Notes under the pieces: generated by a model
Database searches by the model: none
Seen by the model: the letters and a program-made list of their open reading frames with translations, nothing else
Told to the model about the DNA's origin: nothing
Shown here: positions 35,225 to 48,734 of the stretch, piece after piece
How positions within the stretch are numbered: position 1 is the stretch's first letter
How the letters are laid out: each line of letters opens with the position of its first letter
IMG/VR virus record: IMGVR_UViG_3300001687_000010
DNA length: 64,000 nt
Strand: one strand, 5' to 3'
Source of the DNA: a virus
Taxonomy: Duplodnaviria > Heunggongvirae > Uroviricota > Caudoviricetes
Position numbers and translations under genes: made by a program

Positions 35225-35234
35225 CTACTTGCTT

Positions 35235-36160: not shown

Positions 36161-36366
36161 TGCTTTATTGTGACGAATGTGCGGAAAATCATAATTTAGA
36201 AAAACGAGCATTTAGAATTTTTTATGCCGACTGTGAGTTATGCGGTAAAAAATTTATTGAGTGCAATTTCTCGTGCGAGGTTGACGATTGGAAAAATACA
36301 CTACTGGAACGGGTCAAAAAATTTTGGTACATCATAAAGAAGATTGTGAAGGTGAATACTGCGTAA
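36154..36366 (+). CDS. Cys-rich small protein
   Basis: 70-aa ORF (CDEC...CELCG). Overlaps the next ORF in another frame. Confidence 0.35.
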   Translation: MVMLYCDECAENHNLEKRAFRIFYADCELCGKKFIECNFSCEVDDWKNTLLERVKKFWYIIKKIVKVNTA

Positions 36367-36596
36367 TTCATAACCCGTCTGACCATATTATGAAAGATTG
36401 GCCGACCCATTGGCGTGACGATAGGCGAATAATGGAACGCATATGTCCGCACGGCATTGGTCATCCTGACCCTGATGATTTGGCCTTTAAAAGACGTATG
36501 GCAGAAAAATGGGGACGAAAAGATTATGATAAAGGTATCCACGGATGTGATGGATGCTGTAGTGATTCTTTAAAAGATATCGATTTTGACCTTTAA
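36288..36596 (+). CDS. Cys/His-rich protein (possibly fused with the previous ORF via a frameshift)
   Basis: 102 aa with several H/C clusters. Confidence 0.35.
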   Translation: MEKYTTGTGQKILVHHKEDCEGEYCVIHNPSDHIMKDWPTHWRDDRRIMERICPHGIGHPDPDDLAFKRRMAEKWGRKDYDKGIHGCDGCCSDSLKDIDFDL

Positions 36597-36652
36597 GGTC
36601 ATTAACAGGGGATAGACTAACCCCATAAAATTCAACGGAAGGAGCAAAACCT

Positions 36653-37963
36653 ATGAAAAAACTTAGTCTAACTAAAATCGTAGGTATGGTCTTTATCGGC
36701 ACTCTCTTTATTATTGGTCTTATTTGTACGCCAATGATTTTTGAGACTGTTGAAAAAGGAACATACCAAGTTAAACAAGCCGCTGTAAGCGGTACAATGT
36801 CGGCCAAAATGACACCCGGACTTTGGTTACAAATGTTCGGTGATATTGATACTTGGCCAAAAGCTGAAACCTACTTTTTTACCGCAGAAAAAGATACTGA
36901 TGCCGGTGATGAAGATGGTGACGCTTCAATAGAAGTGAGGTTTAATGACGGTTCACTTTGTAAAATCAGTGGAACGCTTCGTATTGTAATGCCGACTACT
37001 GAAGGTGAAGCCATATCTCTTGTTGTTAACCGGGGTCATAAAACATATAATGACCTTCAGGAAAAACTTATTAAACCGACCCTTCGTAACGTCCTTCGTT
37101 CCACTGCCAACCTTATGTCGGCACGGGAATCTTATTCAGAAAAACGCCTTGATTTTATCACATGGTCACGTGACCAGATTAATAATGGCGTATATAAAAC
37201 TGAAGAAGAAGTCCGTGAGGTTACAGACCTTGTAACGGGCGAAAAAACTTGGCGTAAAGTCAAAAAGATTCGCACTGATAATAGTGGTACACCTTTATAT
37301 GAGTCCAATCCGTTAAATGGTTTGGGTATCCAATTGGCCAACTTTGAAATCAAGACATTCGTCTATGAGAAAAAAGTTCAGGAGCAGATTGCAGCCCAAC
37401 AGGAAGCACGGATGGCCGTGGAAACTGCTAAAGCAAAAGCCGAAGAAGCCAAACAGGAAGAGCTAAAAGCGGTTGCCGAAGGTAAGAAAAACGTAGCCAT
37501 TGCGAAGTACGAAAAAGAGCAGGAAAAAGTGAAAGCGGTTGTCGATGCTCAAAAGGCCAAAGAAGTTCAGGAGCTTGATGCTCAGAGAGACAAAAACGTT
37601 GCGGTTATTGCCGGTGAAAAACGTAAAGAAGTTGCCGCTCTTGATAAAGATGCCGCCGCTTTGAAAAAGCAAGAGCAAATCTTGTTAGGTCAGGGTGAAG
37701 CCGAAAGGAAGAAATTGGTATTAGCCGCTGACGGTGCTCTGGCGCAAAAACTTGAGACTTATGAACGGGTTAATGCTATGTACGCTGAAGCCATTAAAGG
37801 CTATAAAGGCAACTGGGTGCCGACTACTGTGTTAGGCGCAAGTGGTAACTCAGAAGCCGCTGGTGGCGCACAGACGCTTATTAATTTATTAACTGCTAAA
37901 ACCGCCGCTGACTTGGCACTTGATATGTCAGTTCCGGCCGGTGCATCCGTTGACAAAAAATAA
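36653..37963 (+). CDS. SPFH / band-7 (HflK/C- or flotillin-like) membrane protein
   Basis: N-terminal TM, SPFH-like core, then a long Ala/Lys/Glu-rich coiled coil. Confidence 0.6.
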   Translation: MKKLSLTKIVGMVFIGTLFIIGLICTPMIFETVEKGTYQVKQAAVSGTMSAKMTPGLWLQMFGDIDTWPKAETYFFTAEKDTDAGDEDGDASIEVRFNDGSLCKISGTLRIVMPTTEGEAISLVVNRGHKTYNDLQEKLIKPTLRNVLRSTANLMSARESYSEKRLDFITWSRDQINNGVYKTEEEVREVTDLVTGEKTWRKVKKIRTDNSGTPLYESNPLNGLGIQLANFEIKTFVYEKKVQEQIAAQQEARMAVETAKAKAEEAKQEELKAVAEGKKNVAIAKYEKEQEKVKAVVDAQKAKEVQELDAQRDKNVAVIAGEKRKEVAALDKDAAALKKQEQILLGQGEAERKKLVLAADGALAQKLETYERVNAMYAEAIKGYKGNWVPTTVLGASGNSEAAGGAQTLINLLTAKTAADLALDMSVPAGASVDKK

Positions 37964-38048
37964 GTCCTTTTAAGGCCAGATGGCTTGAGCTACGGTTCAA
38001 GCCATCGAGCAATATGAGGACAAAACATAACATAAAAAGGAGCAAACT

Positions 38049-38318
38049 ATGTTTATTCAGGCTATTATCGTAATATTATTACTTGTTGGTTTATTATATG
38101 CGTTCTGGCGTATATTTGTTAAAGATTGGCTTATTGATTTAGGTTATATCCCAAAGGAACCTAAAACACATTATACAGAACGACTGGATAAAACTCAAGA
38201 GAATTATGAAAATATAAAAGCCAGTACTGAAGCCGTTAAACAAGAAAAAAAGCTTGTCGGTGAGATTAAAAAGATGGAAAAGACCATCGAAGAAGCCGAT
38301 AATGAAATTGACAATTAA
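38049..38318 (+). CDS. small membrane protein
   Basis: N-terminal TM IQAIIVILLLVGLLYAFW. AAAGGAG RBS. Confidence 0.4.
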   Translation: MFIQAIIVILLLVGLLYAFWRIFVKDWLIDLGYIPKEPKTHYTERLDKTQENYENIKASTEAVKQEKKLVGEIKKMEKTIEEADNEIDN

Positions 38319-38384
38319 TTTTTTTGTTGACAATACTTCCTATTTAGTATATACTCGTGGTATAATTACGGATAGGAGTATGCT

Positions 38385-38861
38385 ATGGAATTAAAATATT
38401 CGGCTAAAGGTACGCCATATATTGATTTAGGCAAATATGGTCGATTGATATTCAGCAAGTATACCGCACACCCGGAATTGGGATATAAATATCTTGCGTA
38501 TAACAATAGTGGTTTCAAAAAAATAGCGACCACTATTGTTAATGCAGAAGGTAAAAAAGAACGGATATTTACATATAAGCAATTTCGGGATTCCGATATG
38601 TTTAACTTTAAGATGAAAAGGGATGAAAAGGGTATTAGGGGAATTCCACGTGGAACTATTCCGCAAAAAATAGGGCAAGCCTTAATACAGATATTTGATT
38701 CCTTAACCGAAGATGGTTATATGCCCTATTCTAATTTGGAATTATTAGGGACTATATTGACCGAATTGGATATGAACGAAATAAAGAAAGTGACGAAGAA
38801 AAAGGCGAGGAGAAGTATCAAGAAGGAGATTAAAAAGGTTGACGAAAAACGTAACGATTAG
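38385..38861 (+). CDS. hypothetical protein
   Basis: 158-aa ORF. Confidence 0.4.
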   Translation: MELKYSAKGTPYIDLGKYGRLIFSKYTAHPELGYKYLAYNNSGFKKIATTIVNAEGKKERIFTYKQFRDSDMFNFKMKRDEKGIRGIPRGTIPQKIGQALIQIFDSLTEDGYMPYSNLELLGTILTELDMNEIKKVTKKKARRSIKKEIKKVDEKRND

Positions 38862-39141
38862 ATTATATGATTGTAATAGATGTGGGAGAAACGGTTGTCG
38901 GGGAGATATCATTAGGGACGGAAAAGGCGGAATTAAAAAATTTATCGGCTGTCCGGGTATGGTAACACCAGATTATATGAGGTGTACGTTATTAGAACGG
39001 GCTTCAGAAAATCACGGTTCTTTTATAGCATTAGGAACTATATTAGAGCAAATGGATTTACAGTTTGACGAGATACCTCGATGGCCTTATTTTAGGTTTA
39101 TATTTAAAGAATCACAACAGGAAGTGCAGACCATAATTTAG
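38839..39141 (+). CDS. hypothetical protein
   Basis: 100-aa ORF. Confidence 0.4.
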   Translation: MTKNVTIRLYDCNRCGRNGCRGDIIRDGKGGIKKFIGCPGMVTPDYMRCTLLERASENHGSFIALGTILEQMDLQFDEIPRWPYFRFIFKESQQEVQTII

Positions 39142-39149
39142 GAGTCATC

Positions 39150-39296
39150 ATGTATAACAATATAACATCCGAAGACGATTTTGAAATGGAAGAAATCGAG
39201 TGCGATTGCGGAGACCCTGATTGTTTAATTTGCAATCCGCCAGAAGATGATTGTGAAAACGAAGGTGATGAGTGCGAACAATGCGGTGGCGGATGA
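39150..39296 (+). CDS. acidic Cys-rich micro-protein (48 aa)
   Basis: AGGAG RBS. CDCGDPDCLICNP...CEQCG. Not in the ORF track (shorter than 60 aa). Confidence 0.35.
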   Translation: MYNNITSEDDFEMEEIECDCGDPDCLICNPPEDDCENEGDECEQCGGG

Positions 39297-39319
39297 GGGA
39301 CTCAGCCGTAAACAGTTTG

Positions 39320-39348
39320 TTTACAAGTTCAGATTTTTGAGTTATAAT
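39320..39348 (+). promoter_or_regulatory. promoter GTTTGTTTACAAG-N17-TATAAT
   Basis: TTTACA / 17 nt / TATAAT read directly. Upstream of the small ORF at 39382. Confidence 0.55.
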
Positions 39349-39381
39349 ATATAAATAAGAAATGAGGAGAAGTTTAGACTA

Positions 39382-39531
39382 ATGTCCAGAACTGAATTTA
39401 TAACTATTCATAGAGAACGCCAAACGCTCATTAAGAGTGGCGGGACAATTGCGACCATGCCGAGACCTCTGTTTACAATGCCATCCCACTTATGGTATAA
39501 TATTAATGAATCAGAGGATAAAGGCGTATGA
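39382..39531 (+). CDS. small ORF (about 49 aa)
   Basis: GAGGAG RBS. Coordinates approximate. Confidence 0.3.
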   Translation: MSRTEFITIHRERQTLIKSGGTIATMPRPLFTMPSHLWYNINESEDKGV

Positions 39532-39566
39532 TTGGATAGAGTGTATATATAGATTTTTATAAAACC

Positions 39567-39601
39567 CTCTATCCACATACCGGATAGGGGGTTTTTTTAT
39601 T
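39567..39601 (+). terminator. rho-independent terminator
   Basis: 10-bp stem CCCTCTATCC/GGATAGGGGG (one G-U pair) with a 7-nt loop, followed by TTTTTTT. Confidence 0.6.
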
Positions 39602-39604
39602 GTT

Positions 39605-39844
39605 ATGAACATTTATGACCCAAAAAATAAAGATGTGGTAAACGCCATTAAGTTTTGCCTTAATTGGGGAAACGGTATGAAATTACTCGGTGTTAAATAC
39701 AGCACTGATAAAGAGATATATAAATGCCGAGTGTTTGACCCTAACTGGGGCGGACGAACCACAATCCGGTTAGATGAGAAGTTTGTACGCCATGCAATCC
39801 AATGGATACAGAAAGGTGGTAAGGCATTATGGACTGGCAATTAA
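39605..39844 (+). CDS. hypothetical protein
   Basis: 79-aa ORF. Confidence 0.4.
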   Translation: MNIYDPKNKDVVNAIKFCLNWGNGMKLLGVKYSTDKEIYKCRVFDPNWGGRTTIRLDEKFVRHAIQWIQKGGKALWTGN

Positions 39845-40062
39845 GAGTTGTTAAACAATACAGAGATGTTCCTTATGGACAGGGTAAAAAAGATTGGTTT
39901 TACGGCATATTTGAAGTGCTATTAAATGAAGATGGGGAACTTCTTTGTATGGGATTAGACCCTATCGCACCTATGCCCACGGAATTTGAAGAGCTAAGAG
40001 GGGACGTTGTAAGAATGCTCGACTCAATGGGTAAGCCTGTTTTAGAATGGCAAGGCTTGTAA
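39829..40062 (+). CDS. hypothetical protein
   Basis: 77-aa ORF. Confidence 0.4.
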   Translation: MDWQLRVVKQYRDVPYGQGKKDWFYGIFEVLLNEDGELLCMGLDPIAPMPTEFEELRGDVVRMLDSMGKPVLEWQGL

Positions 40063-40340
40063 ACCCTTAATTAACGGGGCTTGACGGGTAGTATTTAGAG
40101 TAGTAAAATTATATCTACTCTCATAAACTGAACCGGATTCAGTGGCCAAAAGTGGCGTTTTCAGAGGATCCGGGTGAAATGGTATAAGTACCCGAATTCA
40201 TTACACCCGAGTCCCTATACTGTTATAAGGGGATAGACGAGAAAATCGATTGTGTGGCCTCTCACGGGGCCGGTTGAAAGCACCTATAAAAACGGGCATT
40301 TATGGGGCAATTTTCACTGAATAAGGTTCATTAATTATAA

Positions 40341-40415
40341 GCGGGTATGGTGTTAGTGGTAGCACGATTGATTGCCTATCAGTAAGGCTCGGTTCGAGTC
40401 CGAGTACTCGCTCCA
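40341..40415 (+). tRNA. tRNA-Gly (anticodon GCC)
   Basis: Cloverleaf parsed by hand: acceptor GCGGGTA/TACTCGC, anticodon loop TTGCCTA, T-loop TTCGAGT, encoded CCA. Confidence 0.7.
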
Positions 40416-40434
40416 AAAGGTTTTGTGATGGAAT

Positions 40435-40512
40435 CGGGAATTAGTGTTTAACGGACAAGCACGAGGCATTTGGGATGCTTTAGACTCGGTTCAAATCCGG
40501 GATTCCCGACCA
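40435..40512 (+). tRNA. tRNA-Pro (anticodon TGG)
   Basis: Acceptor CGGGAAT/ATTCCCG, anticodon loop TTTGGGA, T-loop TTCAAAT, CCA. Confidence 0.65.
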
Positions 40513-40603
40513 AATAAAAAACGGACCCGAGGCGAAAGTTGCCGATGAGTCTCCAAAACTCATGTCGATGGGGAGCATTACCTCACGGGTCTGCCAGATA
40601 TAA

Positions 40604-40679
40604 TGCAGGGTAGCTTAATTGGCAAAGCGTCTGACTGTTAATCAGAAAGATGGAGGTTCGATGCCTCTCCCTGCAGCCA
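40604..40679 (+). tRNA. tRNA-Asn (anticodon GTT)
   Basis: Acceptor TGCAGGG/CCCTGCA, D-arm GCTT-AATTGGCA-AAGC, anticodon loop CTGTTAA, CCA. Confidence 0.75.
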
Positions 40680-40692
40680 AAAAATATAATAT

Positions 40693-40771
40693 GCAGAGGT
40701 AGCTCAGTCCGGTAGCAGCTCTTGGGTGAAGTCCAAGGTAGTCGGGGGTTCAAATCCTCCTCTCTGCACCA
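40693..40771 (+). tRNA. tRNA-Phe (anticodon GAA)
   Basis: Acceptor GCAGAGG/TCTCTGC, anticodon stem CTTGG/CCAAG with loop GTGAAGT, CCA. Confidence 0.7.
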
Positions 40772-40776
40772 GTTTT

Positions 40777-40852
40777 GGTCGGCTCGTCCAAATGGCAAGG
40801 ACGCTCGCCTGATTAGCGAGAAATCAAGGTTCGAATCCTTGGCTGACTACCA
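40777..40852 (+). tRNA. tRNA-Ile (anticodon GAT)
   Basis: D-arm GTCC-AAATGGCAA-GGAC, anticodon stem CTCGC/GCGAG with loop CTGATTA, CCA. Confidence 0.7.
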
Positions 40853-40864
40853 AATAAAATATGA

Positions 40865-40939
40865 TGCGGAGTAGAGGAGTGGTCACCTTACAAGGCTCAT
40901 AACCTTGAGACACGGGTTCAAATCCCGTCTCCGCTACCA
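40865..40939 (+). tRNA. tRNA-Met (anticodon CAT), 1:72 mismatch
   Basis: Anticodon stem CAAGG/CCTTG with loop CTCATAA. The T1-T72 mismatch could indicate an initiator-type or aberrant acceptor. Confidence 0.6.
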
Positions 40940-40944
40940 ATTTT

Positions 40945-41022
40945 GCTGGCATCTTCTAAAAGGAATAGGCTGCAAGCCTTTCAAGCTTGACGATGCGGGT
41001 TCGAATCCCGCTGCCAGCACCA
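40945..41022 (+). tRNA. tRNA (anticodon probably TTC, Glu) with atypical D-arm
   Basis: Perfect acceptor GCTGGCA/TGCCAGC, T-arm GCGGG-TTCGAAT-CCCGC, anticodon stem CAAGC/GCTTG with loop CTTTCAA. The D-region does not fold canonically. Confidence 0.5.
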
Positions 41023-41482
41023 GTTTCAAGGATGGTTACAGCAAACAAAATCATTCCATTGTAAGGACGTGGTTGTGGGTTCGAGTCCCACTCCGTGGTT
41101 GTGGGTTCGAGTCCCACTCCCGGCCCCAAAATTATGGCCGGGATAGCTCAATGGGTAGAGCACGAAGATAATACCATCCTGACTTTTTAAGGGGCAGTCC
41201 CTGTTGGATATTTTTGCAAGAGGGTGTCTGGCAGGGGATTAAAATTTACCCTGCATAAGGATAATTACAGCAAAGAACACTTGGTTAAAGAGGTTCAATT
41301 CCTTACTGCCCCGCCAATTTTGGACCCTAAATGATGCTAATAGGGAATTAGCACTTTGTGAAGATAGGCCAATCTTTGTATGCAAAGTCCGGTTCGATTC
41401 CGGTGCGAAGCAGTGGACTGCATTTCTGTTAGCGCAGAAATTAGTTAGGTTCGATTCCTAACCGTTTAGGGTTTAATTTAAT

Positions 41483-41558
41483 GGGCCTGTGGTGTAATAG
41501 GGAACACGGAACCCTTGCAAGGTTTAAGCTGAGAGTTCGAGTCTCTCCGGGTCCACCA
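41483..41558 (+). tRNA. tRNA-Ala (anticodon TGC)
   Basis: Acceptor GGGCCTG/CGGGTCC (two G-U pairs), D-arm GTGT-AATAGGGA-ACAC, anticodon loop CTTGCAA, CCA. Confidence 0.7.
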
Positions 41559-41741
41559 TTTGACAATTTTACGCAATAGACGTAAAAAAATTAAGGCTTT
41601 TGTGTTATGGAGTCATATTTAGAATATAATATGCGGATGTTACGAAGTAAAGTTAGAGTGGCTAAAGAGGCTAAAAAAAATGACTGGCCTGACCTATATA
41701 GATATTCTATAAAATCAGCGGAAGAATTAATTGAAGAATTA

Positions 41742-41827
41742 GGAGAGTACCTCAATTCGGTGATAAACAAGGTTTGAACCCTTGGGCATGGTAAAACATG
41801 GGCGTTCGATTCGTCTACTCTCCTCCA
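41742..41827 (+). tRNA. tRNA-Ser (anticodon TGA), class II
   Basis: Perfect acceptor GGAGAGT/ACTCTCC, anticodon stem CAAGG/CCTTG with loop TTTGAAC, long variable arm CATG-GTAAAA-CATG, CCA. 86 nt. Confidence 0.65.
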
Positions 41828-41842
41828 AAAAGGACTTGACTT

Positions 41843-42013
41843 ATGAAATGGTGCGATTTATTATGTAAGTACGCTGAATGGCCGGATAAGATTCAAGACG
41901 GGTCAAAATCCTGTCAGACGTTTGTCGGGCTATATTGTAAGAAAAAGAAGCGAATAGTTTATAAAAATCAACCTTGTGATGAGAAAGAAGAGGTAAAATG
42001 TTATGGATGCTAA
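41843..42013 (+). CDS. Cys-rich micro-protein (56 aa)
   Basis: MKWCDLLCKY...KCYGC. In frame up to the start of the ORF at 42003. Not in the ORF track. Confidence 0.35.
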   Translation: MKWCDLLCKYAEWPDKIQDGSKSCQTFVGLYCKKKKRIVYKNQPCDEKEEVKCYGC

Positions 42014-42194
42014 AGTATTACGTTGTTTAATGGAAGGGGATTTAGAAGAAAGATTTGATAAAATTACGTTTTTTCTCTGCGATTTGGTGGTAGACGCAGT
42101 TGAAAAGTGGCTTAGTTTATGCGAATGGGTCGGGGATAAAGCAATTATAGTTTTTGATGGCATATTTAATCCGGCTGAGTTAGGACCACGATAA
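42003..42194 (+). CDS. hypothetical small protein
   Basis: 63-aa ORF. Confidence 0.35.
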   Translation: MDAKVLRCLMEGDLEERFDKITFFLCDLVVDAVEKWLSLCEWVGDKAIIVFDGIFNPAELGPR

Positions 42195-42442
42195 TGGCTC
42201 ACGACTGGAAATATGTAAATATCACTCCCGGTACGAAATATTTTAAATATTTCGGTTGCCATGACCTTAGAGAGTGCCGAAAATGTGGCAAAATACAGGC
42301 AAAACACGCCGATTATATTTGGGGTCGGGTAAGTGGATATTATTGGGAACCCAAAGTCGGACGTTGTCCTACCGATAAAAAGGGAGATAAAAATGATAGC
42401 ATCAATGGCACAAGGAAGAAGATTAAAGTATCAAATGGCTAA
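42194..42442 (+). CDS. Cys-rich small protein (zinc-ribbon-like)
   Basis: CHDLRECRKCG...GRCP. Confidence 0.4.
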   Translation: MAHDWKYVNITPGTKYFKYFGCHDLRECRKCGKIQAKHADYIWGRVSGYYWEPKVGRCPTDKKGDKNDSINGTRKKIKVSNG

Positions 42443-42614
42443 ATTTACTGATGGTCAACTCAAAACAGTAAAAAAGAAATACCCTGCGCTTGCCGATATG
42501 ATTGATGAACTTTTAAAATGGCCAGAGCATATTAGAAAGGAAGATGGGTTTGACCCTGATAAATGCAATTGCCCTGATTGCCGTGATGAAAGGAAAAAAG
42601 CAAAAAAAAGCTAA
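42393..42614 (+). CDS. small protein with CxxC...CxxC (start at internal Met)
   Basis: SD AAGGGAGATAAAA directly upstream. The same SD string precedes the ORF at 42684. Confidence 0.4.
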   Translation: MIASMAQGRRLKYQMAKFTDGQLKTVKKKYPALADMIDELLKWPEHIRKEDGFDPDKCNCPDCRDERKKAKKS

Positions 42615-42683
42615 AGTTTCCCTTGACTCTGCCGATATATTGTTATAGGATAAAGGTATAACAATAAAAAAGGGAGATAAAAA

Positions 42684-42908
42684 ATGGGATGGACAAAAGT
42701 TACGGATAAAAAGTTTGCTACCGAATTAAGCGATATTGAAGCCTATCAACTGGCTACACAGGGCAAGCAAGTTCGTTGCCCGAAATGTCGGGTATATATC
42801 CCGAATATTTTAGTCGGATGCAAACACGCTATGGATAAAGAAGGTGATGTTACGCATTTTACCCTTCGACATGGTTGTGGCGCAAATTTAGTTATCTTTA
42901 ACGATTAA
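42684..42908 (+). CDS. zinc-ribbon small protein
   Basis: SD AAGGGAGATAAAA. CPKCRV...CKHA...HGCG. Confidence 0.45.
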   Translation: MGWTKVTDKKFATELSDIEAYQLATQGKQVRCPKCRVYIPNILVGCKHAMDKEGDVTHFTLRHGCGANLVIFND

Positions 42909-42925
42909 TATAAAAGGTGATAAAA

Positions 42926-43111
42926 ATGGGTTTTAATAACGGCATTATTAATAAGGTAGAAAAACCCGTACAATATCGAGTTAGGGCAGAACATACAAGC
43001 GGTAAAATGCTTAATGTACTTATTACGGGTAAAACCATTCAACAGATTCATCAAACCTTCGGTAAACATGGTTTTGTTGTTAATCGATGGTCGAAAGTAG
43101 AAGGGAGTTAG
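42926..43111 (+). CDS. hypothetical small protein
   Basis: SD AAAGGTGATAAAA precedes the internal ATG. Confidence 0.4.
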   Translation: MGFNNGIINKVEKPVQYRVRAEHTSGKMLNVLITGKTIQQIHQTFGKHGFVVNRWSKVEGS

Positions 43112-43117
43112 TTAGTA

Positions 43118-43318
43118 ATGTGCGAAAAATGCGTCAGACGACATAAAAGACTTGGCTTGCCGAAATGGTTTTCTTACGGTAAAGCCAAAGTTTATGCCCA
43201 TCGTTTAGTTAATGGGGAACCGATTCCGCTTTTTTACGATAGACGTGTTAACGTAGCAATCGAAGCGCACGTCCATAAAATCGAAAGAGTAAGAAGTAAA
43301 AATGAAAAAGTTAATTGA
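43118..43318 (+). CDS. hypothetical small protein
   Basis: 66-aa ORF. Confidence 0.4.
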   Translation: MCEKCVRRHKRLGLPKWFSYGKAKVYAHRLVNGEPIPLFYDRRVNVAIEAHVHKIERVRSKNEKVN

Positions 43319-43514
43319 CAATTGGGAAGAGTTAGGCTATAATAGTTATGAACGAACAGTCGGCACTTTTCCCGTACTATGTAATACAATTTATTGCCGT
43401 CATAGCGAATATCGAGAGTATTTAGGCGGATATTATTGTAATTTTTTAGGCCGAATGGTTGAAAACGGTCAAATTTGTAAAGGAGAAAAAGATGCCAGAG
43501 AAGCGACAGCATGA
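43302..43514 (+). CDS. Cys-rich small protein
   Basis: 70-aa ORF. Confidence 0.35.
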   Translation: MKKLIDNWEELGYNSYERTVGTFPVLCNTIYCRHSEYREYLGGYYCNFLGRMVENGQICKGEKDAREATA

Positions 43515-43647
43515 AAAGGTGATTGAAACGCCTGATTTTACAGTTGCAAAATATGTTTACACCGACCATGCAGGAAACCCGATTTATTTTGACGGTGTAG
43601 TGTACTGGGTTGTATTGCCTAACGGTATTATAGAAAATTACGGTTAA
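43492..43647 (+). CDS. hypothetical small protein (start at internal Met)
   Basis: SD AAAGGAGAAAAAG upstream. Confidence 0.4.
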   Translation: MPEKRQHEKVIETPDFTVAKYVYTDHAGNPIYFDGVVYWVVLPNGIIENYG

Positions 43648-43716
43648 AAAATAGGTGGGCTTCGGGGAACCAAGCCGGGAAAGGGATGGGTAATTTCTAT
43701 AAGAAAGGGCCAAACG

Positions 43717-43863
43717 ATGTCATCTAAAGAAATTGTCGTCAAAAACACGGAGTTAGAAGTTAACATTTATCCGGTTGTTATTTGCCCTAAATGCAATGAG
43801 GTTATGAAATTTAAACCGACTGGCAGAACGGGTGAAATGATTTGTGGGTGTAAAGATGAATAA
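43717..43863 (+). CDS. zinc-ribbon micro-protein (48 aa)
   Basis: CPKCN...CGC. Coordinates approximate. Not in the ORF track. Confidence 0.3.
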   Translation: MSSKEIVVKNTELEVNIYPVVICPKCNEVMKFKPTGRTGEMICGCKDE

Positions 43864-44218
43864 ATATGTTATCGCAATGACTATTGAAGATATGGGTTCA
43901 GGTGTTACCGATATCTATCAAGATGTTTTTAAAGGGGATAATAAATACGAAGCGTTAGGTCGGGCTTTTGAACGCTTTAGCCAAGCCGGTGTAGTCCATA
44001 AATATCAGGTCACATTGGTTGAGCGTGACGCAAGAAAAAATAGTTGGCCTGAACATCTTGATAAATACGCTAAATTTTTAAAAGAAGGGCAGAAAATACA
44101 GGCTATTAAATTCCGCCGAGAAGAAACTGGCGAGGGATTAAAGGATGCTAAACATTTTATCGACCATTTAGTTGATAAATATCCCGATATATATAAACGA
44201 CCAACTTCGGAGTGGTAA
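43856..44218 (+). CDS. hypothetical protein
   Basis: Starts at the internal ATG (MNKYVIAM...). Confidence 0.45.
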   Translation: MNKYVIAMTIEDMGSGVTDIYQDVFKGDNKYEALGRAFERFSQAGVVHKYQVTLVERDARKNSWPEHLDKYAKFLKEGQKIQAIKFRREETGEGLKDAKHFIDHLVDKYPDIYKRPTSEW

Positions 44219-44346
44219 AATGCCGATTAATGGGGGATGTTCCCGCTTGCGGTCTGTAAAACCGTTGCACGTAAAAAGAATTGTGGGTGGTTGTGCGAGT
44301 AGTTCGATTCTTCCATCCCCCACCACCAAAAAAAGAAAGGCCGATA

Positions 44347-44541
44347 ATGGATAAAGATAAGGCCGAAATTGTTATCGAAAAATGCCAAGCTCTGGCTACC
44401 GACAAAGGCGCAACTAAAGGTGAGCGAATTGTTGCTAACCATAAGGCGCAGACATTAATCGATAAGCATATAAACGATTCTAATATCTGGATAGCCGATA
44501 CCATATGGATGCCTGACGCATGGTTTATAAGAAAGGGATAA
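44347..44541 (+). CDS. hypothetical small protein
   Basis: Start at MDKDK, preceded by an A-rich SD. Confidence 0.4.
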   Translation: MDKDKAEIVIEKCQALATDKGATKGERIVANHKAQTLIDKHINDSNIWIADTIWMPDAWFIRKG

Positions 44542-44765
44542 ATGATTGATACCTTAATATTAATTGGTGGGTTTATCCTTGCTATGTATTGTGGTGTTAA
44601 AATTTGGTGCAGTAAAAGCCAGAGAGACAGCTTTTTGACCGAAGAAGAAAGGAATGCGCTAAATGGATATAAAGGACTTGATAAAGATTTGTAACACCTG
44701 TCCGTACCGGAATAAACAGGATAATATGTATTTTATGGCGTGGTGGTCACACTGCCAAAAAGAAT

Positions 44766-45041
44766 GTGAGTTATTGGCTAATGTGGAGAAGTTTAAAAAG
44801 AATTTTGAATCCTGACCTTGTTTATTGGATTGATAGCCATATTGAATATATTAAAGATTATTTTTATATTCTAAAAACCAATGTTGATTATGATTTAGGC
44901 TTACATCCAGACCATGATGCTTACAGGGAACCGGATGAAGATGAAAATATCTGGCGTTTAGAACGCATGGGTATTGAAAATCACGATTATTATAAAAAAG
45001 AATGGGTATGGGATAGCCGAAAAGATTGGGACGAAGGATAA
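44766..45041 (+). CDS. hypothetical protein
   Basis: 91-aa ORF. Confidence 0.4.
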   Translation: MSYWLMWRSLKRILNPDLVYWIDSHIEYIKDYFYILKTNVDYDLGLHPDHDAYREPDEDENIWRLERMGIENHDYYKKEWVWDSRKDWDEG

Positions 45042-45058
45042 ATGAAATGAACAAATAC

Positions 45059-45132
45059 GGCCCGTTAGTTTAGTGGTAAAATGGGTGGCTGTCGACCACT
45101 CGTTAGGGGTTCGATTCCCCTACGGGCCGCCA
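45059..45132 (+). tRNA. tRNA-Asp (anticodon GTC)
   Basis: Perfect acceptor GGCCCGT/ACGGGCC, anticodon stem GGTGG/CCACT with loop CTGTCGA, T-arm AGGGG-TTCGATT-CCCCT, CCA. Confidence 0.75.
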
Positions 45133-45153
45133 TTTAAAAATGTGAGGTGACTA

Positions 45154-45366
45154 ATGGATTGCCCTAAATGCAATTTTTGGATATCAGATAGAGTATCCGA
45201 ATTTTTTGACCATAAAAGAGGTATGGTTGTAAACAAATGGGTCTGTATAAATTGTGGCCATATTTATATCACAGAGGATAAAATCGAAGATGTACTGGGG
45301 GAAGTAAACAGCATTCCGCCAGAATATTATATAGACGACTGGGATGAAGATGATACCAGTATTTAG
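45154..45366 (+). CDS. zinc-ribbon small protein
   Basis: CPKCN...CINCG. Confidence 0.45.
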   Translation: MDCPKCNFWISDRVSEFFDHKRGMVVNKWVCINCGHIYITEDKIEDVLGEVNSIPPEYYIDDWDEDDTSI

Positions 45367-45443
45367 GAGTGTAGCCCAATTTGGCAGAGGCACATGGCTT
45401 AGAACCATGACAGTGATGGGTTCGAATCCCTCCACTCCTACCA
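45365..45443 (+). tRNA. tRNA with anticodon TAG (Leu-like); member of a paralog trio with identical 5' half
   Basis: Its 5' portion AGGAGTGTAGCCCAATTTGGCAGAGGCA matches the elements at 48482 and 57240. Anticodon stem CATGG/CCATG with loop CTTAGAA. Short variable arm. CCA. Confidence 0.55.
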
Positions 45444-45595
45444 GTTAAATTTATGTTTAGAAAAATACTAATAAAAATATTACTCAGATTAGAGTATATG
45501 GCCATTGATATTGCCGGTATATTTAACCGACTTCAGGTTAGGTTAAAAGGTACTCGATGGAAAATAGAAAAATATTGATTAGGAGAATTTGTGTT

Positions 45596-45913
45596 ATGAG
45601 TAGAAGTACAGAAGAATGGGAACAAGAAGTTATTAGCGTGTTAAAAGGAACATCCCCTGAAGAACCAATTACGGTTAGGGATATAGCCGATATTCTCGGC
45701 ATTAATGATGGCCCCAGTTGCCCTCGCACCAGAAAGTATATTCTGAGCGCAATGAAAAATAATAACGTGGCCATTGGTTCTAACCGCAAAGGATATTACC
45801 TTATTAAAACGGCTAAACAATGCCAAGAGTACCTTAACGAACTGTTAGGTCGCTCAGTGGCTTTATCCGAGCGAATCAAGATTACTTGGTACGCTTTTAA
45901 TGGAAGAAACTAA
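45596..45913 (+). CDS. putative winged-helix DNA-binding protein
   Basis: ITVRDIADILGI...; start at internal Met. Function uncertain. Confidence 0.4.
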   Translation: MSRSTEEWEQEVISVLKGTSPEEPITVRDIADILGINDGPSCPRTRKYILSAMKNNNVAIGSNRKGYYLIKTAKQCQEYLNELLGRSVALSERIKITWYAFNGRN

Positions 45914-45936
45914 TGAAAAAACTTAAACAGAATACT

Positions 45937-46012
45937 GGGTGTATAGCTCAACGGTAGAGCAACTGGCTCTTAACCAGTAGGTTGACGGGTTCAAATCCCT
46001 CTGCACCCACCA
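45937..46012 (+). tRNA. tRNA-Lys (anticodon CTT)
   Basis: D-arm GCTC-AACGGTA-GAGC, anticodon stem ACTGG/CCAGT with loop CTCTTAA, CCA. Confidence 0.7.
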
Positions 46013-46022
46013 AAATTTATGT

Positions 46023-46107
46023 GGGTCGTTGACCGAATGGTAAGGGGCTGGACTTTTAATCCAGTGGGTTTATCCCATTCCGGGTTCGAATCCCGGGCGG
46101 CCCACCA
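46023..46107 (+). tRNA. 85-nt tRNA with anticodon TTT and a long variable arm (unusual class-II-like Lys?)
   Basis: Acceptor GGGTCGT/GCGGCCC, anticodon stem CTGGA/TCCAG with loop CTTTTAA, variable hairpin GGG-TTTAT-CCC, T-arm CCGGG-TTCGAAT-CCCGG, CCA. Confidence 0.5.
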
Positions 46108-46125
46108 TATTCTGGATGTTTAAAA

Positions 46126-46905: not shown

Positions 46906-46919
46906 GAAAGGATAAAACT

Positions 46920-48560: not shown

Positions 48561-48597
48561 GTTTTTAAGGTTGATTACAGCAAACAACTATGGCGAA

Positions 48598-48669
48598 ACC
48601 GGATATTGCTGGTTCGAATCCAGCCTCCCCTACTTGAAGGGGAGTGACCTAAGTGGTAAAGGTGCCGGT
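48598..48669 (+). ncRNA. circularly-permuted tRNA-like element (3' half precedes 5' half)
   Basis: Order: ACCGG-ATATT, then T-arm GCTGG-TTCGAAT-CCAGC, then CTCCCCT, then a 6-nt linker, then AGGGGAG-TG-ACCT-AAGTGGTAA-AGGT-G-CCGGT. The acceptor (7/7), D-arm and anticodon stem (5/5) are all complementary only across the permutation. Confidence 0.4.
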
Positions 48670-48734
48670 CAAAAAATATCAACCTGTATTTATTACTTAG
48701 TATGTCGGTTTTTTGCCGACATTGGGAGATTAAA

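What the first reader, a model, noticed from the sequence alone, without database searches (positions are those of the whole stretch)
41023..41480. Scrambled tRNA-like block: tandemly duplicated T-arm, acceptor-stem hairpins joining 3' and 5' halves, and a recurring GATTACAGCAAA motif
The region contains several tRNA parts in a non-canonical order.
- A 26-nt unit GTGGTTGTGGGTTCGAGTCCCACTCC (T-arm) is directly repeated at 41069-41094 and 41095-41120.
- It is followed by TCCCGGC-C-CCA and a 10-nt loop. The complementary 5' acceptor strand GGCCGGGA then runs into a perfect D-arm (TA-GCTC-AATGGGTA-GAGC) at 41136-41161. So a tRNA 3' half is fused head-to-tail to a tRNA 5' half.
- A second element (41191-41316) has acceptor strands GGGGCAG / CTGCCCC-G-CCA about 110 nt apart, flanking a T-arm.
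- Two more isolated T-arms with no 5' partner lie at about 41385-41410 and about 41445-41465.
The 15-nt motif [AT]T-[GA][GA]TTACAGCAAA[CG]AA occurs at about 41034, about 41263 and again at about 48573. Each time it sits about 20-40 nt upstream of a T-arm.
The track ORF 40905-41171 runs through tRNA-Met and these elements and is probably spurious.
This looks like either a nest of degenerate tRNA pseudogenes, tRNAs with a novel mini-intron or insertion element carrying the GATTACAGCAAA motif, or a family of permuted tRNAs.
Basis: seen in the sequence. Interest (0 to 1): 0.65.

Follow-up and report, generated by a model that had tools for sequence, protein, structure and literature searches.

The report
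Phage tRNA-shaped Y-like RNA genes
The "scrambled tRNA" block is a pair of genes for tRNA-shaped non-coding RNAs, which belong to a large, unannotated phage RNA family that sits next to a Ro60-like RNA-binding protein gene in many other phages and so probably forms an RNA-protein particle with it.

Summary

- **What E1 and E3 are.** E1 (41027-41182) and E3 (48566-48687, the third motif copy) are not tRNAs or pseudogenes. Both have the layout of bacterial YrlA Y RNAs, which resemble circularly permuted tRNAs: T-arm, closed acceptor-like hairpin, D-arm, with the 5' and 3' ends paired in a stem (P1).
- **How they differ from YrlA.** They lack YrlA's GNCGAA motif and score below Rfam's cut-off. 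They carry UUACAGCAAA (core CAGCAA) in an internal loop next to P1.
- **The family.** The module defines a family in at least 119 IMG/VR contigs and over 250 GenBank phage records, including Felix O1 and BF/GAP32-type jumbo phages. It is unannotated everywhere. All seven P1 pairs covary.
- **Protein partner.** The family is tightly linked, on the same strand, to a Ro60-like protein gene (Pfam DUF2828 + DUF7788/vWA_Ro60). The window and 20 kb of extra flank do not contain that gene.
- **E2** (41191-41316) fits a circularly permuted, tRNA-ended version of the same fold.
- **E4** (41322-41474) is a separate, unexplained structure with two T-arms.
- **The 26-nt duplication** in E1 recurs in a second assembly.

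Binding to the Ro-like protein and the function are inferred.

The parts
41027..41182 (+). E1: full-length Y-RNA-like tRNA mimic of the CAGCAA family, carrying an extra duplicated T-arm
   Evidence: My covariance model R1 scores it 87.0 bits, E=6.5e-16, over model positions 1-124, with the second T-arm copy treated as a 28-nt insertion. A de-duplicated E1 was in the model's seed. Rfam YrlA matches 41094-41164 at 37.4 bits (cut-off 69), E=1.7e-6. The minimum-free-energy fold forms P1, the acceptor hairpin and the D-arm, z=-4.78.
41029..41035 (+). E1 P1 stem, 5' strand (AGGATGG); pairs with 41174-41180
   Evidence: Seven Watson-Crick pairs read directly from the sequence. In the family, P1 is 98% paired and all 7 pairs show compensatory changes.
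41036..41045 (+). E1 conserved motif UUACAGCAAA (family core CAGCAA), in the internal loop next to P1
   Evidence: Exact match. The motif is invariant in alignment A3, whose members were chosen by that motif. The core CAGCAA is kept in members found without using the motif.
41055..41067 (+). E1 small hairpin TCC-AUUGUAA-GGA (7-nt anticodon-loop-like or variable-arm hairpin)
   Evidence: Read from the sequence. Relaxed ARAGORN reads it as an anticodon loop 'tgt'. Similar 7-nt-loop hairpins occur in many members.
41068..41120 (+). Perfect tandem duplication (2 x 26 nt) containing two T-arm copies (GTGGG-TTCGAGT-CCCAC at 41075-41091 and 41101-41117)
   Evidence: Tandem Repeats Finder: period 26, 2.0 copies, 100%. 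Reproduced in a second assembly, L350. No other family member inspected has such a duplication. In the minimum-free-energy fold the two copies pair with each other.
41118..41143 (+). E1 closed acceptor-like hairpin TCCCGGCC / GGCCGGGA; its loop begins with C-CCA
   Evidence: Eight base pairs read from the sequence. It aligns to the acceptor-like helix of Rfam YrlA. In the family this helix is 95% paired with all 7 pairs covarying. About 15 of 55 members have an N-CCA-type loop start.
41144..41161 (+). E1 D-arm (TA-GCTC-AATGGGTA-GAGC)
   Evidence: The family D-stem is 91% paired.
41174..41182 (+). E1 P1 3' strand (CCATCCT) followed by the conserved G(A); preceded by the A-rich loop strand 41163-41173
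   Evidence: The 3' end ...CCUG is conserved in the family.
41191..41316 (+). E2: divergent member of the tRNA-ended (circularly permuted) version of the same fold. Parts: open 7-bp acceptor stem plus G-CCA; long GU-rich hairpin in place of a D-arm; A-rich strand; P1 closed as a hairpin (41246-41252 / 41258-41264); motif at 41265-41274; weak T-arm (about 41289-41304)
   Evidence: Same order of parts as L066, L142, L062, L088, L093, L127, L141, L019, L050 and L206. The P1 strand plus motif, AGGATAA|TTACAGCAAA, is identical to L141. A fold constrained to include the P1 hairpin costs -44.5 against the unconstrained -44.7 kcal/mol. Model R1, built for the other topology, scores only its P1/motif part at 16.1 bits, E=0.46. 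The assignment is therefore qualitative.
41322..41474 (+). E4: separate structured RNA-like unit. It has a 10-bp closing stem GGACCCTAAA/TTTAGGGTTT and two T-arm-like hairpins (41389-41403, 41444-41460). It has no CAGCAA motif. Not part of the family; function unknown
   Evidence: Fold -56.4 kcal/mol, z=-3.97. No full-length match to any Rfam family or to R1, only short T-arm partial matches. No relative found by blastn among the fetched loci.
48566..48687 (+). E3: intact full-length member of the family. Parts: P1 AGGTTGA/TCAACCT, motif 48575-48584, 5-bp inner stem ACCGG/CCGGT, T-arm 48606-48622, closed acceptor-like hairpin 48623-48648, D-arm 48651-48669
   Evidence: R1 scores it 94.4 bits, E=1.8e-17, over model positions 1-124 (E3 was in the seed). 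Rfam YrlA matches 48600-48667 at 25.7 bits, E=0.0012. Sequence.

Best explanation
E1 and E3 are genes for small non-coding RNAs that mimic tRNA, in the manner of bacterial YrlA Y RNAs.

**Fold.** Each RNA is probably cut out of the phage's tRNA-array transcript. It folds into a tRNA-like L-shape made of a T-arm, an acceptor stem closed by a loop, and a D-arm. Its two ends pair in a 7-8-bp stem (P1). Next to P1 lies an internal loop. The 5' strand of that loop carries the conserved UUACAGCAAA (core CAGCAA) and the 3' strand is A-rich.

**Proposed mechanism.** The P1/CAGCAA module is the docking site for a phage Ro60-like protein (Pfam DUF2828 plus a Ro60-type vWA domain), in the way Ro60/Rsr binds the stem of a Y RNA. 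The tRNA-like body would then bring in a tRNA-recognising enzyme, such as an exonuclease, ligase or CCA-adding enzyme. The particle would survey, repair or degrade tRNAs and other structured RNAs during infection.

**Other elements.** E2 is the same fold opened at the acceptor stem and closed at P1. It is a tRNA-ended version in which the protein-docking arm replaces the anticodon arm. E1's extra T-arm is a recent duplication that may impair it.

**Shown:** the fold, its conservation and covariation, membership of a large phage RNA family, and the genomic linkage of that family to the Ro-like gene.

**Inferred:** expression and processing in this phage, binding to the protein, and the biological role.
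For: **1. YrlA-type architecture.** Rfam YrlA matches the T-arm / closed hairpin / D-arm core of E1 (37.4 bits, E=1.7e-6) and E3 (25.7 bits, E=0.0012).

**2. A large family.**
- These yielded 95 distinct elements with a candidate P1. 66 of them passed a stricter filter (all 7 P1 positions paired, at least 6 Watson-Crick, length 170 nt or less).
- The elements examined lie inside phage tRNA arrays.
- Two subfamilies alone give 241 and 18 GenBank phage records, including Felix O1 and Serratia BF/GAP32-type jumbo phages. None is annotated as an RNA.

**3. Covariation on 25 sequences.** P1 is 98% paired and the acceptor-like hairpin 95% paired, each with all 7 pairs showing compensatory changes. 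The T-stem is 100% paired and the D-stem 91%. The covariation score is 0.83, against 0.21 in shuffles (0 of 500 reach it) and at most 0.144 when partners are slid.

**4. Window search.** Model R1 finds exactly two full copies in the window.

**5. Linkage to a Ro-like gene.**
- Felix O1 ORF42 lies about 1 kb upstream of its element and is DUF2828 + DUF7788.
- 24 of 62 IMG/VR loci chosen by the RNA hold the gene in their short flanks. All 28 element-gene pairs are on the same strand, and spacing is often 8-440 nt.
- 37 of 79 element loci hold the gene, against 1 of 119 control phage tRNA loci (p=7e-17).
- Replicated in GTDB contigs: 13 of 15 hits with a perfect P1 have the gene within 8 kb.

**6. 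Reverse test, starting from the protein.**
- Mycobacteriophage Krypton555 has a full element about 100 nt downstream of the gene (76.6 bits, motif CCACAGCAAU).
- Listeria LP-124 and Campylobacter PC14 have tandem P1+CAGCAA modules directly upstream of the gene.
- Vibrio XZ1 has a module that overlaps the gene's ribosome-binding site and start codon.

**7. The protein is Ro-like.**
- The top PDB hits of the family profile are Ro60/TROVE proteins (1yvp, E=2.5e-4).
- 7 of 14 members hit Pfam vWA_Ro60.
- Some GenBank records name it 'Ro-like RNA binding protein'.
- HHpred's best match for what appears, by synteny, to be the same gene in Listeria phage CKA15 is D. radiodurans Rsr. Three unannotated regions within 2 kb upstream of that gene are among the most highly transcribed in the phage (PMC12282133).
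Against: - **No partner gene found here.** No Ro-like or TROVE gene is present in the 64-kb window or in 10 kb of extra flank on each side. Only 24 of 62 RNA-ascertained loci show the gene nearby. In BF-like jumbo phages the RNA and the gene are about 200 kb apart. The partnership in this phage is therefore unverified.
- **Motif differs from known Ro sites.** The canonical Ro-binding motif GNCGAA(N)G is absent. Whether CAGCAA binds a Ro-like protein has never been tested.
- **Below Rfam's cut-off.** Rfam YrlA scores are far below the gathering score of 69 bits.
- **Inner stem not universal.** The stem between P1 and the tRNA-like core is paired in only 61% of cells.
- **Partial circularity.** P1 complementarity was used to delimit many elements. 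E1 and E3 were in the seed of R1.
- **E1 may be defective.** Its duplicated T-arm may misfold.
- **No expression data** exist for this phage.
Confidence: 0.75

Rival explanations
1. tRNA-mimic decoy or sponge that works without the Ro-like protein. The RNA would soak up a host factor that recognises the tRNA elbow or acceptor region, such as an anti-phage tRNA nuclease, a tRNA-modifying or processing enzyme, or the CCA-adding enzyme. This would protect phage and host tRNAs.
For: - The tRNA-like core is the best-conserved structured part.
- The elements examined sit in tRNA arrays.
- This window has two copies but no Ro-like gene.
- Felixounaviruses that infect E. coli K-12 keep the element at 98.5-100% identity.
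Against: - This reading does not explain the strongly conserved P1/CAGCAA module.
- It does not explain the 'mini' forms, which keep only that module and lack any tRNA-like body.
- It does not explain the same-strand adjacency to the Ro-like gene.
Confidence: 0.12
2. Cis-acting element of the tRNA-operon transcript. It would be a processing punctuation mark (an RNase P/Z/E entry site) or a regulatory leader, not a stable trans-acting RNA.
For: - E1, E2 and E4 are packed 5-10 nt apart between tRNA genes, like tRNAs in a polycistronic precursor.
- In Vibrio phage XZ1 the module overlaps the ribosome-binding site and start codon of the Ro-like gene, which looks autoregulatory.
- M. smegmatis YrlA is an RNase P substrate.
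Against: - E1 and E3 are not next to any gene they could regulate.
- A full conserved L-shaped fold plus a paired-end stem is more than a cleavage signal needs.
- Regions that by synteny match the Listeria modules were reported as highly abundant RNA species.
Confidence: 0.06
3. Degenerate tRNA pseudogenes or recombination debris in a fast-evolving tRNA array.
For: - The region contains a tandem duplication.
- E2 is weakly structured, with a poor D-arm and a 4-bp T-stem.
- E4 has no relatives.
- Relaxed ARAGORN gives conflicting low-score tRNA calls.
Against: - E1 and E3 share a non-tRNA motif and a covarying stem with many elements in unrelated phages.
- Debris would not conserve a paired-end stem or a closed acceptor hairpin.
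- Decay remains possible for E2, and E4 remains unexplained.
Confidence: 0.04
4. True circularly permuted tRNA genes. As in the red alga Cyanidioschyzon merolae, they would be circularised and re-opened at the acceptor loop to give decoding tRNAs. This might supply the tRNA-Trp and tRNA-Tyr that ARAGORN does not find.
For: - A 3' part is followed by a 5' part, joined by a loop that in E1 starts with C-CCA.
- Trp and Tyr tRNAs are missing from the 29 tRNAs called.
- About 27% of family members have N-CCA at the start of the acceptor loop.
Against: - E3 and many members have no anticodon arm.
- Joining the ends would give a stem with the CAGCAA loop, not a 7-nt anticodon loop.
- Most acceptor loops are 3-7 nt without CCA.
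- Rfam tRNA scores only 14.7 bits, E=6.3, in the region.
Confidence: 0.03

Closest known systems
YrlA (Y RNA-like A; Rfam RF02553; Chen et al. 2014, PMC4201824; crystal structure reported in bioRxiv 10.1101/312249)
   Same: Same order of parts: paired 5'/3' ends with an internal loop, then T-arm, an acceptor-like stem closed by a loop, then D-arm. Overall it resembles a circularly permuted tRNA. Both are encoded by phages as well as bacteria, and both are linked to a Ro-type protein gene on the same strand. Some members have a 7-bp acceptor stem and CCA-like loop starts, like the RNase P-cleavable M. smegmatis YrlA.
   Different: - The putative protein-binding module differs: UU(A/U/G)CAGCAA(A/U/C) next to a 7-8-bp terminal stem ending ...CCUG, instead of GNCGAA(N)G.
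- Rfam YrlA matches only the tRNA-like core, at 25-43 bits against a gathering score of 69.
- The linked protein is DUF2828 + DUF7788/vWA_Ro60, not a Pfam TROVE protein.
- The family also exists in a tRNA-ended permutation and in 'mini' forms.
Classical Y RNAs with Ro60/Rsr (metazoan Y RNAs, D. radiodurans Yrn1, Salmonella YrlB, Thermus phage phiLo Yrl1/2; PMC12135203)
   Same: Small RNAs whose paired ends and adjacent internal loop carry the Ro-binding site. They are encoded close to the Ro gene. The 'mini' P1+CAGCAA modules beside the Ro-like gene in Listeria and Campylobacter phages resemble YrlB or Yrl1/2 in lacking a tRNA-like domain.
   Different: No GGUCCGA or CGAA motif is present. Binding to any Ro-type protein is untested here.
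Circularly permuted tRNA genes (Cyanidioschyzon merolae and some archaea) and two-piece (permuted) tmRNA genes
   Same: The 3' acceptor/T-arm part is encoded upstream of the 5' acceptor/D-arm part, with a short linker that may start with CCA.
   Different: No anticodon loop can be restored and no bulge-helix-bulge splice motif is evident. There is no tag reading frame and no G3:U70 pair. Rfam tmRNA_permuted scores 12.9 bits against a cut-off of 47.
Phage T4 'species 1' and 'species 2' stable RNAs (rnaC, rnaD)
   Same: Small stable RNAs of unknown function encoded at the end of a T4-type phage tRNA cluster (annotation in NC_000866).
   Different: No convincing sequence or structure match. R1 finds only tRNA-tRNA junction hits in the T4 tRNA region. 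rnaD has only a loose ...CACAGCAGAAAC... resemblance.

Membership tests
YrlA (Rfam RF02553 / Chen et al. 2014) | tRNA-like domain in the order T-arm, closed acceptor-like stem-loop, D-arm | tested here: met
   cmscan aligns E1 41094-41164 (37.4 bits, E=1.7e-6) and E3 48600-48667 (25.7 bits, E=0.0012) to model positions 23/24-84/85.
YrlA (Rfam RF02553 / Chen et al. 2014) | Score at or above Rfam's gathering threshold (69 bits) over the full model | tested here: not met
   No YrlA hit at gathering score. The best scores are 37.4 and 25.7 bits, on the core only. Relatives score 35-43 bits.
YrlA (Rfam RF02553 / Chen et al. 2014) | GNCGAA(N0-1)G motif near the 5' end (the proposed Rsr/Ro60 contact) | tested here: not met
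   The feature is defined in PMC4201824. E1, E2 and E3 carry UUACAGCAAA at that position instead.
YrlA (Rfam RF02553 / Chen et al. 2014) | 5' and 3' ends pair to form a stem with an internal loop | tested here: met
   P1 has 7 Watson-Crick pairs in both E1 and E3. In the family it is 98% paired with all pairs covarying.
YrlA (Rfam RF02553 / Chen et al. 2014) | Encoded within about 4 kb of, and on the same strand as, a Ro60 (TROVE) ortholog | tested here: not met
   No TROVE or DUF2828 ORF occurs in the window or in the extra 10-kb flanks. In relatives the linked gene is DUF2828 + DUF7788, a Ro-like protein rather than a Pfam TROVE protein.
YrlA (Rfam RF02553 / Chen et al. 2014) | Bound by Rsr; carries tRNA-type modifications | not testable with these tools
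   Needs immunoprecipitation and modification mapping.
CAGCAA-module phage RNA family (defined here; model R1) | 7-8-bp terminal stem immediately followed by UU(A/U/G)CAGCAA, an A-rich opposite strand, and a 3' end ...C(C/U)UG | tested here: met
   Both E1 and E3 have all of these parts. Members outside the seed score comparably: Krypton555 76.6 bits, L265 82.1, L309 80.6. E1 and E3 were in the seed, so their own scores of 87 and 94 bits are partly by construction.
CAGCAA-module phage RNA family (defined here; model R1) | Ro-like (DUF2828 + DUF7788/vWA_Ro60) gene in the same genome | tested here: inconclusive
   The gene is absent from about 84 kb examined. The rest of this T4-like genome is unavailable. 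In BF-like jumbo phages the two lie about 200 kb apart.
tRNA-ended permutation of the CAGCAA family (L066 type) - for E2 | Open 7-bp acceptor stem; P1 closed as a hairpin directly 5' of the motif; T-arm abutting the 3' acceptor strand | tested here: inconclusive
   E2 has the acceptor stem plus G-CCA, a 6-of-7 P1 hairpin (energetically neutral), the exact motif and a weak T-arm. It lacks a D-arm and the hairpin between motif and T-arm. No covariance model could be built for this class because MAFFT misaligned P1.
tRNA (Rfam RF00005 / ARAGORN) | Cloverleaf in canonical order with an anticodon loop | tested here: not met
   ARAGORN default finds none in 41023-41482. Rfam tRNA scores 14.7 bits, E=6.3. 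Only relaxed ARAGORN settings give mutually inconsistent calls.
Permuted (two-piece) tmRNA | Match to the permuted tmRNA model; tag reading frame; G:U at acceptor position 3 | tested here: not met
   tmRNA_permuted scores 12.9 bits against a cut-off of 47. The acceptor stems GGCCGGG and GGGGAG have no G3:U70 pair.
Ro60/Rsr protein family - for the linked DUF2828 protein of relatives | C-terminal vWA domain with a MIDAS motif of the Ro60 type | tested here: met
   7 of 14 members hit Pfam PF25045 vWA_Ro60. The family profile's best PDB hits are Ro60 proteins aligned over the vWA domain, and D-x-S-x-S is invariant.
Ro60/Rsr protein family - for the linked DUF2828 protein of relatives | N-terminal TROVE HEAT-repeat ring | not tested
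   Pfam calls the N-terminal part DUF2828, not TROVE. HHpred's best match for what appears by synteny to be the Listeria phage homolog is reported as D. radiodurans Rsr (PMC12282133). No structure prediction was run here.

The most novel reading that the evidence does not exclude
Many tailed phages, from Felix O1 and P100-type Listeria phages to mycobacteriophages and 350-kb jumbo phages, would carry an undescribed RNA-protein system. It would consist of a Ro60 paralog (DUF2828 + Ro60-type vWA) and a family of RNAs that share one docking module (P1 stem + CAGCAA loop) mounted on three chassis:
- a Y-RNA-like permuted tRNA (E1, E3);
- a genuine tRNA-ended molecule with CCA, in which the docking arm replaces the anticodon arm (E2, L066 type);
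- bare 'mini' modules, one of which overlaps the protein gene's own start codon.

The tRNA-ended forms could be processed, CCA-tailed and perhaps aminoacylated like tRNAs. The system would recruit tRNA-handling enzymes to defend or remodel the tRNA pool during infection.
Probability: 0.45. Interest if true: 0.85.

Novelty: new variant of a known kind. Interest (0 to 1): 0.72.

Why it matters
Y RNAs and Ro60 are well studied in animals and in a few bacteria. What phage Ro-like proteins bind is still unknown. One 2025 paper only guessed that abundant unannotated transcripts next to such a gene "may be Y RNAs" (PMC12282133).

- **A testable partner.** This finding gives that guess a concrete RNA partner with a defined motif and fold. 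The partner exists in easily handled model phages, including Felix O1, P100/A511-type Listeria phages and mycobacteriophages. Binding, structure and knockout experiments can start at once.
- **Annotation gap.** The element is an RNA gene missing from hundreds of deposited phage genomes. In some records it is overlapped by predicted "hypothetical proteins".
- **An evolutionary example.** One protein-docking module appears on circularly permuted versions of a tRNA scaffold. This bears on how tRNA mimics evolve from tRNA genes.

Tried and rejected
- **tRNA with an intron.** ARAGORN with intron and low-threshold options gave only mutually inconsistent calls, for example 'tRNA-Leu' with an 86-nt intron spanning E1-E2. 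Rejected.
- **Permuted tmRNA or other Rfam families.** Only sub-threshold partial T-arm hits were found.
- **Close relatives in GenBank phages.** blastn of 40300-42300 hit only individual tRNA genes. The exact E3 sequence is absent from IMG/VR.
- **First loose motif scan.** Most of its 120 loci were chance matches in coding sequence. A stricter pattern was needed.
- **Ro-like or TROVE gene in the window.** Pfam on 20 ORFs, tblastn with Felix ORF42 and a family HMM on all ORFs of 80 aa or more, including the +/-10-kb flanks, were all negative.
- **Universal inner stem (P2).** It is only 61% paired. Many members instead have a 7-nt-loop hairpin before or after the core, so the junction varies.
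- **Covariance model for the tRNA-ended class, to score E2.** Abandoned because MAFFT misaligned the P1 hairpin.
- **Relatives of E4.** None by blastn. The two-T-arm scan found many other two-T-arm RNAs but none clearly homologous.
- **Papers not held.** Chen et al. 2014 supplements and Burroughs & Aravind 2016.
- **T4 rnaC/rnaD as homologs.** No support.
Full report
**Observation.** The window is part of a T4-like phage genome. It encodes a family B DNA polymerase, a DnaB-type helicase, a UvsW-like helicase and a CCA-adding enzyme. Its extended flanks add a T4-type portal, gp32 and clamp-loader genes. The polymerase is only about 29% identical to any GenBank phage. ARAGORN finds 29 tRNA genes on the + strand between 40341 and 57405, none for Trp or Tyr, and none in 41023-41482. 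Rfam at gathering score agrees.

- The 26-nt unit is a perfect tandem repeat (41068-41120, period 26, 2.0 copies, 100%).
- The closed hairpin TCCCGGCC/GGCCGGGA runs into a perfect D-arm.
- GGGGCAG pairs with CTGCCCC-G-CCA 110 nt downstream.
- Two further T-arm hairpins follow.
- TTACAGCAAA occurs exactly three times, all on the + strand inside the tRNA array (41036, 41265, 48575). About 0.12 copies are expected.

A second assembly (L350) differs from the window by an indel near 42600 but is gap-free and 99.99% identical across 29322-42600. The duplication is therefore reproduced and is not an obvious assembly artefact. ORF 40905-41171 overlaps two tRNA genes and E1 and is best treated as spurious.

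**What E1 and E3 are.** In permissive mode, Rfam matches the Y RNA-like family YrlA to 41094-41164 (37.4 bits, E=1.7e-6) and to 48600-48667 (25.7 bits, E=0.0012). Both matches cover model positions 23/24-84/85, which are the T-arm, the closed acceptor-like hairpin and the D-arm. The YrlA literature describes these RNAs as resembling circularly permuted tRNAs with a closed acceptor stem.

In both elements the sequence just upstream of the motif pairs perfectly with a strand downstream of the D-arm (AGGATGG/CCATCCT in E1, AGGTTGA/TCAACCT in E3). The units are therefore E1 = 41027-41182 and E3 = 48566-48687. The flanks do not match YrlA. Canonical YrlA carries GNCGAA(N)G near its 5' end as the likely Ro60/Rsr contact (PMC4201824). 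These elements carry UUACAGCAAA in an internal loop opposite an A-rich strand.

**A large family.** A first scan of IMG/VR for the motif followed by GGTTCRA gave mostly chance hits, but about 16 loci had the same architecture. It yielded 95 distinct elements with a candidate P1, of which 66 passed a stricter filter. Those examined lie inside phage tRNA arrays and score 35-43 bits against Rfam YrlA, below its cut-off of 69.

Two subfamilies alone give 241 and 18 GenBank phage records. The first is mainly Felixounavirus, including Felix O1 at 24577-24707. The second is Serratia BF, Erwinia, Yersinia, GAP32, CBB and similar jumbo phages. In every record the element is unannotated or overlapped by a "hypothetical protein".

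On a 25-sequence alignment (A3) the five proposed helices behave as follows:

| Helix | Cells paired | Pairs with compensatory changes |
|---|---|---|
| P1 | 98% | 7 of 7 |
| Acceptor-like hairpin | 95% | 7 of 7 |
| T-stem | 100% | 3 of 5 |
| D-stem | 91% | 3 of 4 |
| Inner stem (P2) | 61% | 3 of 3 |

The covariation score is 0.83, against 0.21 in shuffles (0 of 500 reach it) and at most 0.144 when partners are slid. P1 complementarity helped to delimit the elements, so that result is partly circular. However, most elements have seven Watson-Crick pairs at a fixed position, which chance does not give.

A covariance model built from A3 (R1) finds exactly two full matches in the window: E3 at 94.4 bits and E1 at 87.0 bits, with the second T-arm copy treated as an insertion. 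All other hits are weak tRNA-tRNA junctions.

In loci not chosen by the motif, R1 finds members at 50-82 bits with motif variants UUUCAGCAAC, UAACAGCAGA, AUACAGCAAU and UUGCAGCAAU. The conserved core is therefore CAGCAA.

In GTDB genome contigs the strict pattern gives only 72 hits in 596 Gb, with about 34 expected by chance (my arithmetic). The family therefore appears concentrated in viral sequence.

**Partner protein.** In Felix O1 a 471-aa "RNA-binding protein" (ORF42) lies about 1 kb upstream of the element, at the head of the tRNA array. Pfam calls it DUF2828 + DUF7788. The evidence for linkage is:
- Homologs occur in 24 of 62 RNA-ascertained IMG/VR loci despite short flanks. All 28 element-gene pairs are on the same strand, and many are 8-440 nt apart.
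- Counting both topologies, 37 of 79 element loci hold the gene, against 1 of 119 control phage tRNA loci (p=7e-17).
- The 20 gene-bearing loci that my strict filter left out all come from the second, stricter scan; none comes from the chance matches of the first scan.
- In the independent GTDB set, 13 of 15 hits with a perfect P1 have the gene within the same 8-kb locus.

The reverse test starts from the protein:
- Mycobacteriophage Krypton555 has a full element about 100 nt downstream of the gene (76.6 bits, motif CCACAGCAAU).
- Listeria phage LP-124 has three tandem "mini" P1+(U/A/C)ACAGCAA modules directly upstream of the gene. RtcB-like and second RNA ligase genes lie downstream.
- Campylobacter phage PC14 has two such modules.
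- In Vibrio phage XZ1 the module's 3' strand contains the gene's start codon and its loop contains the Shine-Dalgarno sequence.

The protein is Ro-like on four counts:
- The best PDB matches of the family profile are Ro60/TROVE proteins (1yvp at E=2.5e-4, also 9kop and 9nen).
- 7 of 14 members hit Pfam vWA_Ro60, and the MIDAS D-x-S-x-S motif is invariant.
- Some GenBank records call it "Ro-like RNA binding protein", and 710 phage records carry a homolog.
- A 2025 study of Listeria phage CKA15 reports Rsr as the top HHpred match for what appears, by synteny, to be the same gene. The same study found the protein in virions. It also found three very highly transcribed unannotated regions within 2 kb upstream, and speculated that they might be Y RNAs (PMC12282133).

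I did not test the N-terminal ring fold.

**The gap for this window.** No Ro-like or TROVE gene is found in the 64-kb window or in 10 kb of flank on either side. In BF-like jumbo phages the RNA lies at about 300 kb and the gene at about 100 kb. The gene may therefore lie elsewhere in this genome, but that is untested.

**E2, E4 and the duplication.** Several contigs carry the same fold opened at the acceptor stem and closed at P1. The order is acceptor 5' strand, D-arm, A-rich strand, P1 hairpin, UUACAGCAAA, hairpin, T-arm, acceptor 3' strand. Examples are L066 2120-2236, which Rfam calls a 117-nt "tRNA", and L142, L062, L088, L093, L127, L141, L019, L050 and L206.

E2 (41191-41316) has this order of parts:
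- a 7-bp acceptor stem plus G-CCA;
- an A-rich strand;
- a 6-of-7 P1 hairpin (41246-41252 / 41258-41264) whose 3' strand plus motif is identical to that of L141;
- a weak T-arm.

Forcing the P1 hairpin costs only 0.2 kcal/mol. E2 lacks a D-arm and the hairpin before the T-arm. I could not build a model for this class. I therefore call E2 a divergent or decaying member.

E4 (41322-41474) has a 10-bp closing stem and two T-arm-like hairpins (z=-3.97). It has no motif and no relatives. It remains unexplained. RNAs with two T-arms are common in phage contigs.

E1's duplicated T-arm is unique among the members inspected. In the minimum-free-energy fold the two copies pair with each other, which could disrupt the tRNA elbow.

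About 27% of members, including E1, begin the acceptor loop with N-CCA. Most have 3-7-nt loops without it. This is consistent with descent from tRNA genes that encode CCA, as this phage's tRNA genes do.

**Mechanism, rivals and novelty.** The best-supported reading is that E1 and E3 are Y-RNA-like tRNA mimics. Their P1/CAGCAA module would dock a phage Ro-like protein. Their tRNA-like body would recruit a tRNA-handling enzyme for RNA surveillance, repair or degradation during infection. The fold, the family membership and the genomic linkage are shown. Expression here, binding and function are inferred.

The rivals are a protein-independent tRNA decoy, a cis-acting processing or regulatory signal, tRNA debris, and true permuted tRNA genes. 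Each is less likely, for the reasons given in its own entry.

The kind of element, Y RNA with a Ro-type protein including in phages, is known. This variant is absent from Rfam 15, and none of the eight full-text searches returned a description of it. Its distinguishing features are the motif, the Ro-paralog partner, the circular permutations and the mini forms.

Noticed in passing
window 41322-41474: E4 is a 153-nt structured unit with a 10-bp closing stem and two T-arm-like hairpins. It is packed between E2 and tRNA-Ala. It has no CAGCAA motif, no full-length Rfam match and no relatives found.
   Followed up: partly
IMG/VR loci L242, L310, L246, L312, L243, L315, L227 (coordinates): A recurrent RNA class of about 93-106 nt in phage contigs. 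It has a 7-bp acceptor-like closing stem, a first T-arm about 10 nt after the 5' strand, a middle segment containing ATGG(U/A), and a second T-arm abutting the 3' strand. More than 120 contigs have two T-loops 30-55 nt apart.
   Followed up: no
L238 4995-5148; L266 4972-5124: Apparent tRNA nested inside another tRNA. A complete cloverleaf is inserted where the anticodon region of an outer tRNA-like sequence would be.
   Followed up: no
L224 (Vibrio phage XZ1, ON000910.1) 4950-5010: A P1+UUUACAGCAAU module whose 3' strand AUGUC contains the start codon of the Ro-like gene and whose loop holds the Shine-Dalgarno GAGGAAA. This suggests the protein represses its own translation.
   Followed up: partly
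L221 (Listeria phage LP-124, NC_047745.1) 4620-4886 and 7815-11458: Three tandem mini P1+(U/A/C)ACAGCAA modules lie directly upstream of the DUF2828 gene. An RtcB-like ligase gene and a second putative RNA ligase gene lie 1.3-4 kb downstream. By synteny the modules probably correspond to the three highly transcribed unannotated regions reported for phage CKA15 (PMC12282133).
   Followed up: partly
L220 (Felix O1, NC_005282.1) 2294-2364, 2461-2522, 2915-2986: Additional weaker R1 hits (24-31 bits) in gaps between Felix O1 tRNA genes. They may be further mini modules.
   Followed up: no
window 40905-41171: An 88-aa ORF with a TTG start overlaps tRNA-Met, tRNA-Glu and E1. It is almost certainly not a gene.
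   Followed up: yes
window 40341-57405: Of the 20 amino acids, the 29 ARAGORN tRNAs leave out only Trp and Tyr. Several tRNA genes, such as Glu, Met and Ala, encode their CCA ends.
   Followed up: no
window 22672-24009; 57607-58359: The phage encodes a CCA-adding enzyme (PolyA_pol + HD domains). An HD-domain protein gene lies at the end of the tRNA array. Both fit a tRNA-maintenance theme.
   Followed up: no
window about 42594-42600 versus L350 13279-13524: The otherwise 99.99%-identical ENA contig carries about 244 extra bases at this point. This is a strain-level indel just downstream of the first tRNA block.
   Followed up: no
L024 4214-4281: Near-threshold match to the HDV-like ribozyme family (HDV-F-prausnitzii, 38.4 bits against a cut-off of 44) in a phage tRNA array that also holds two YrlA-like elements.
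   Followed up: no
L219 (phage T4, NC_000866.4) 2909-3172, minus strand: T4 rnaD contains ...CAUCACAGCAGAAAC... near its 3' end, a loose resemblance to the CAGCAA motif. No structural match to the family was found.
   Followed up: partly
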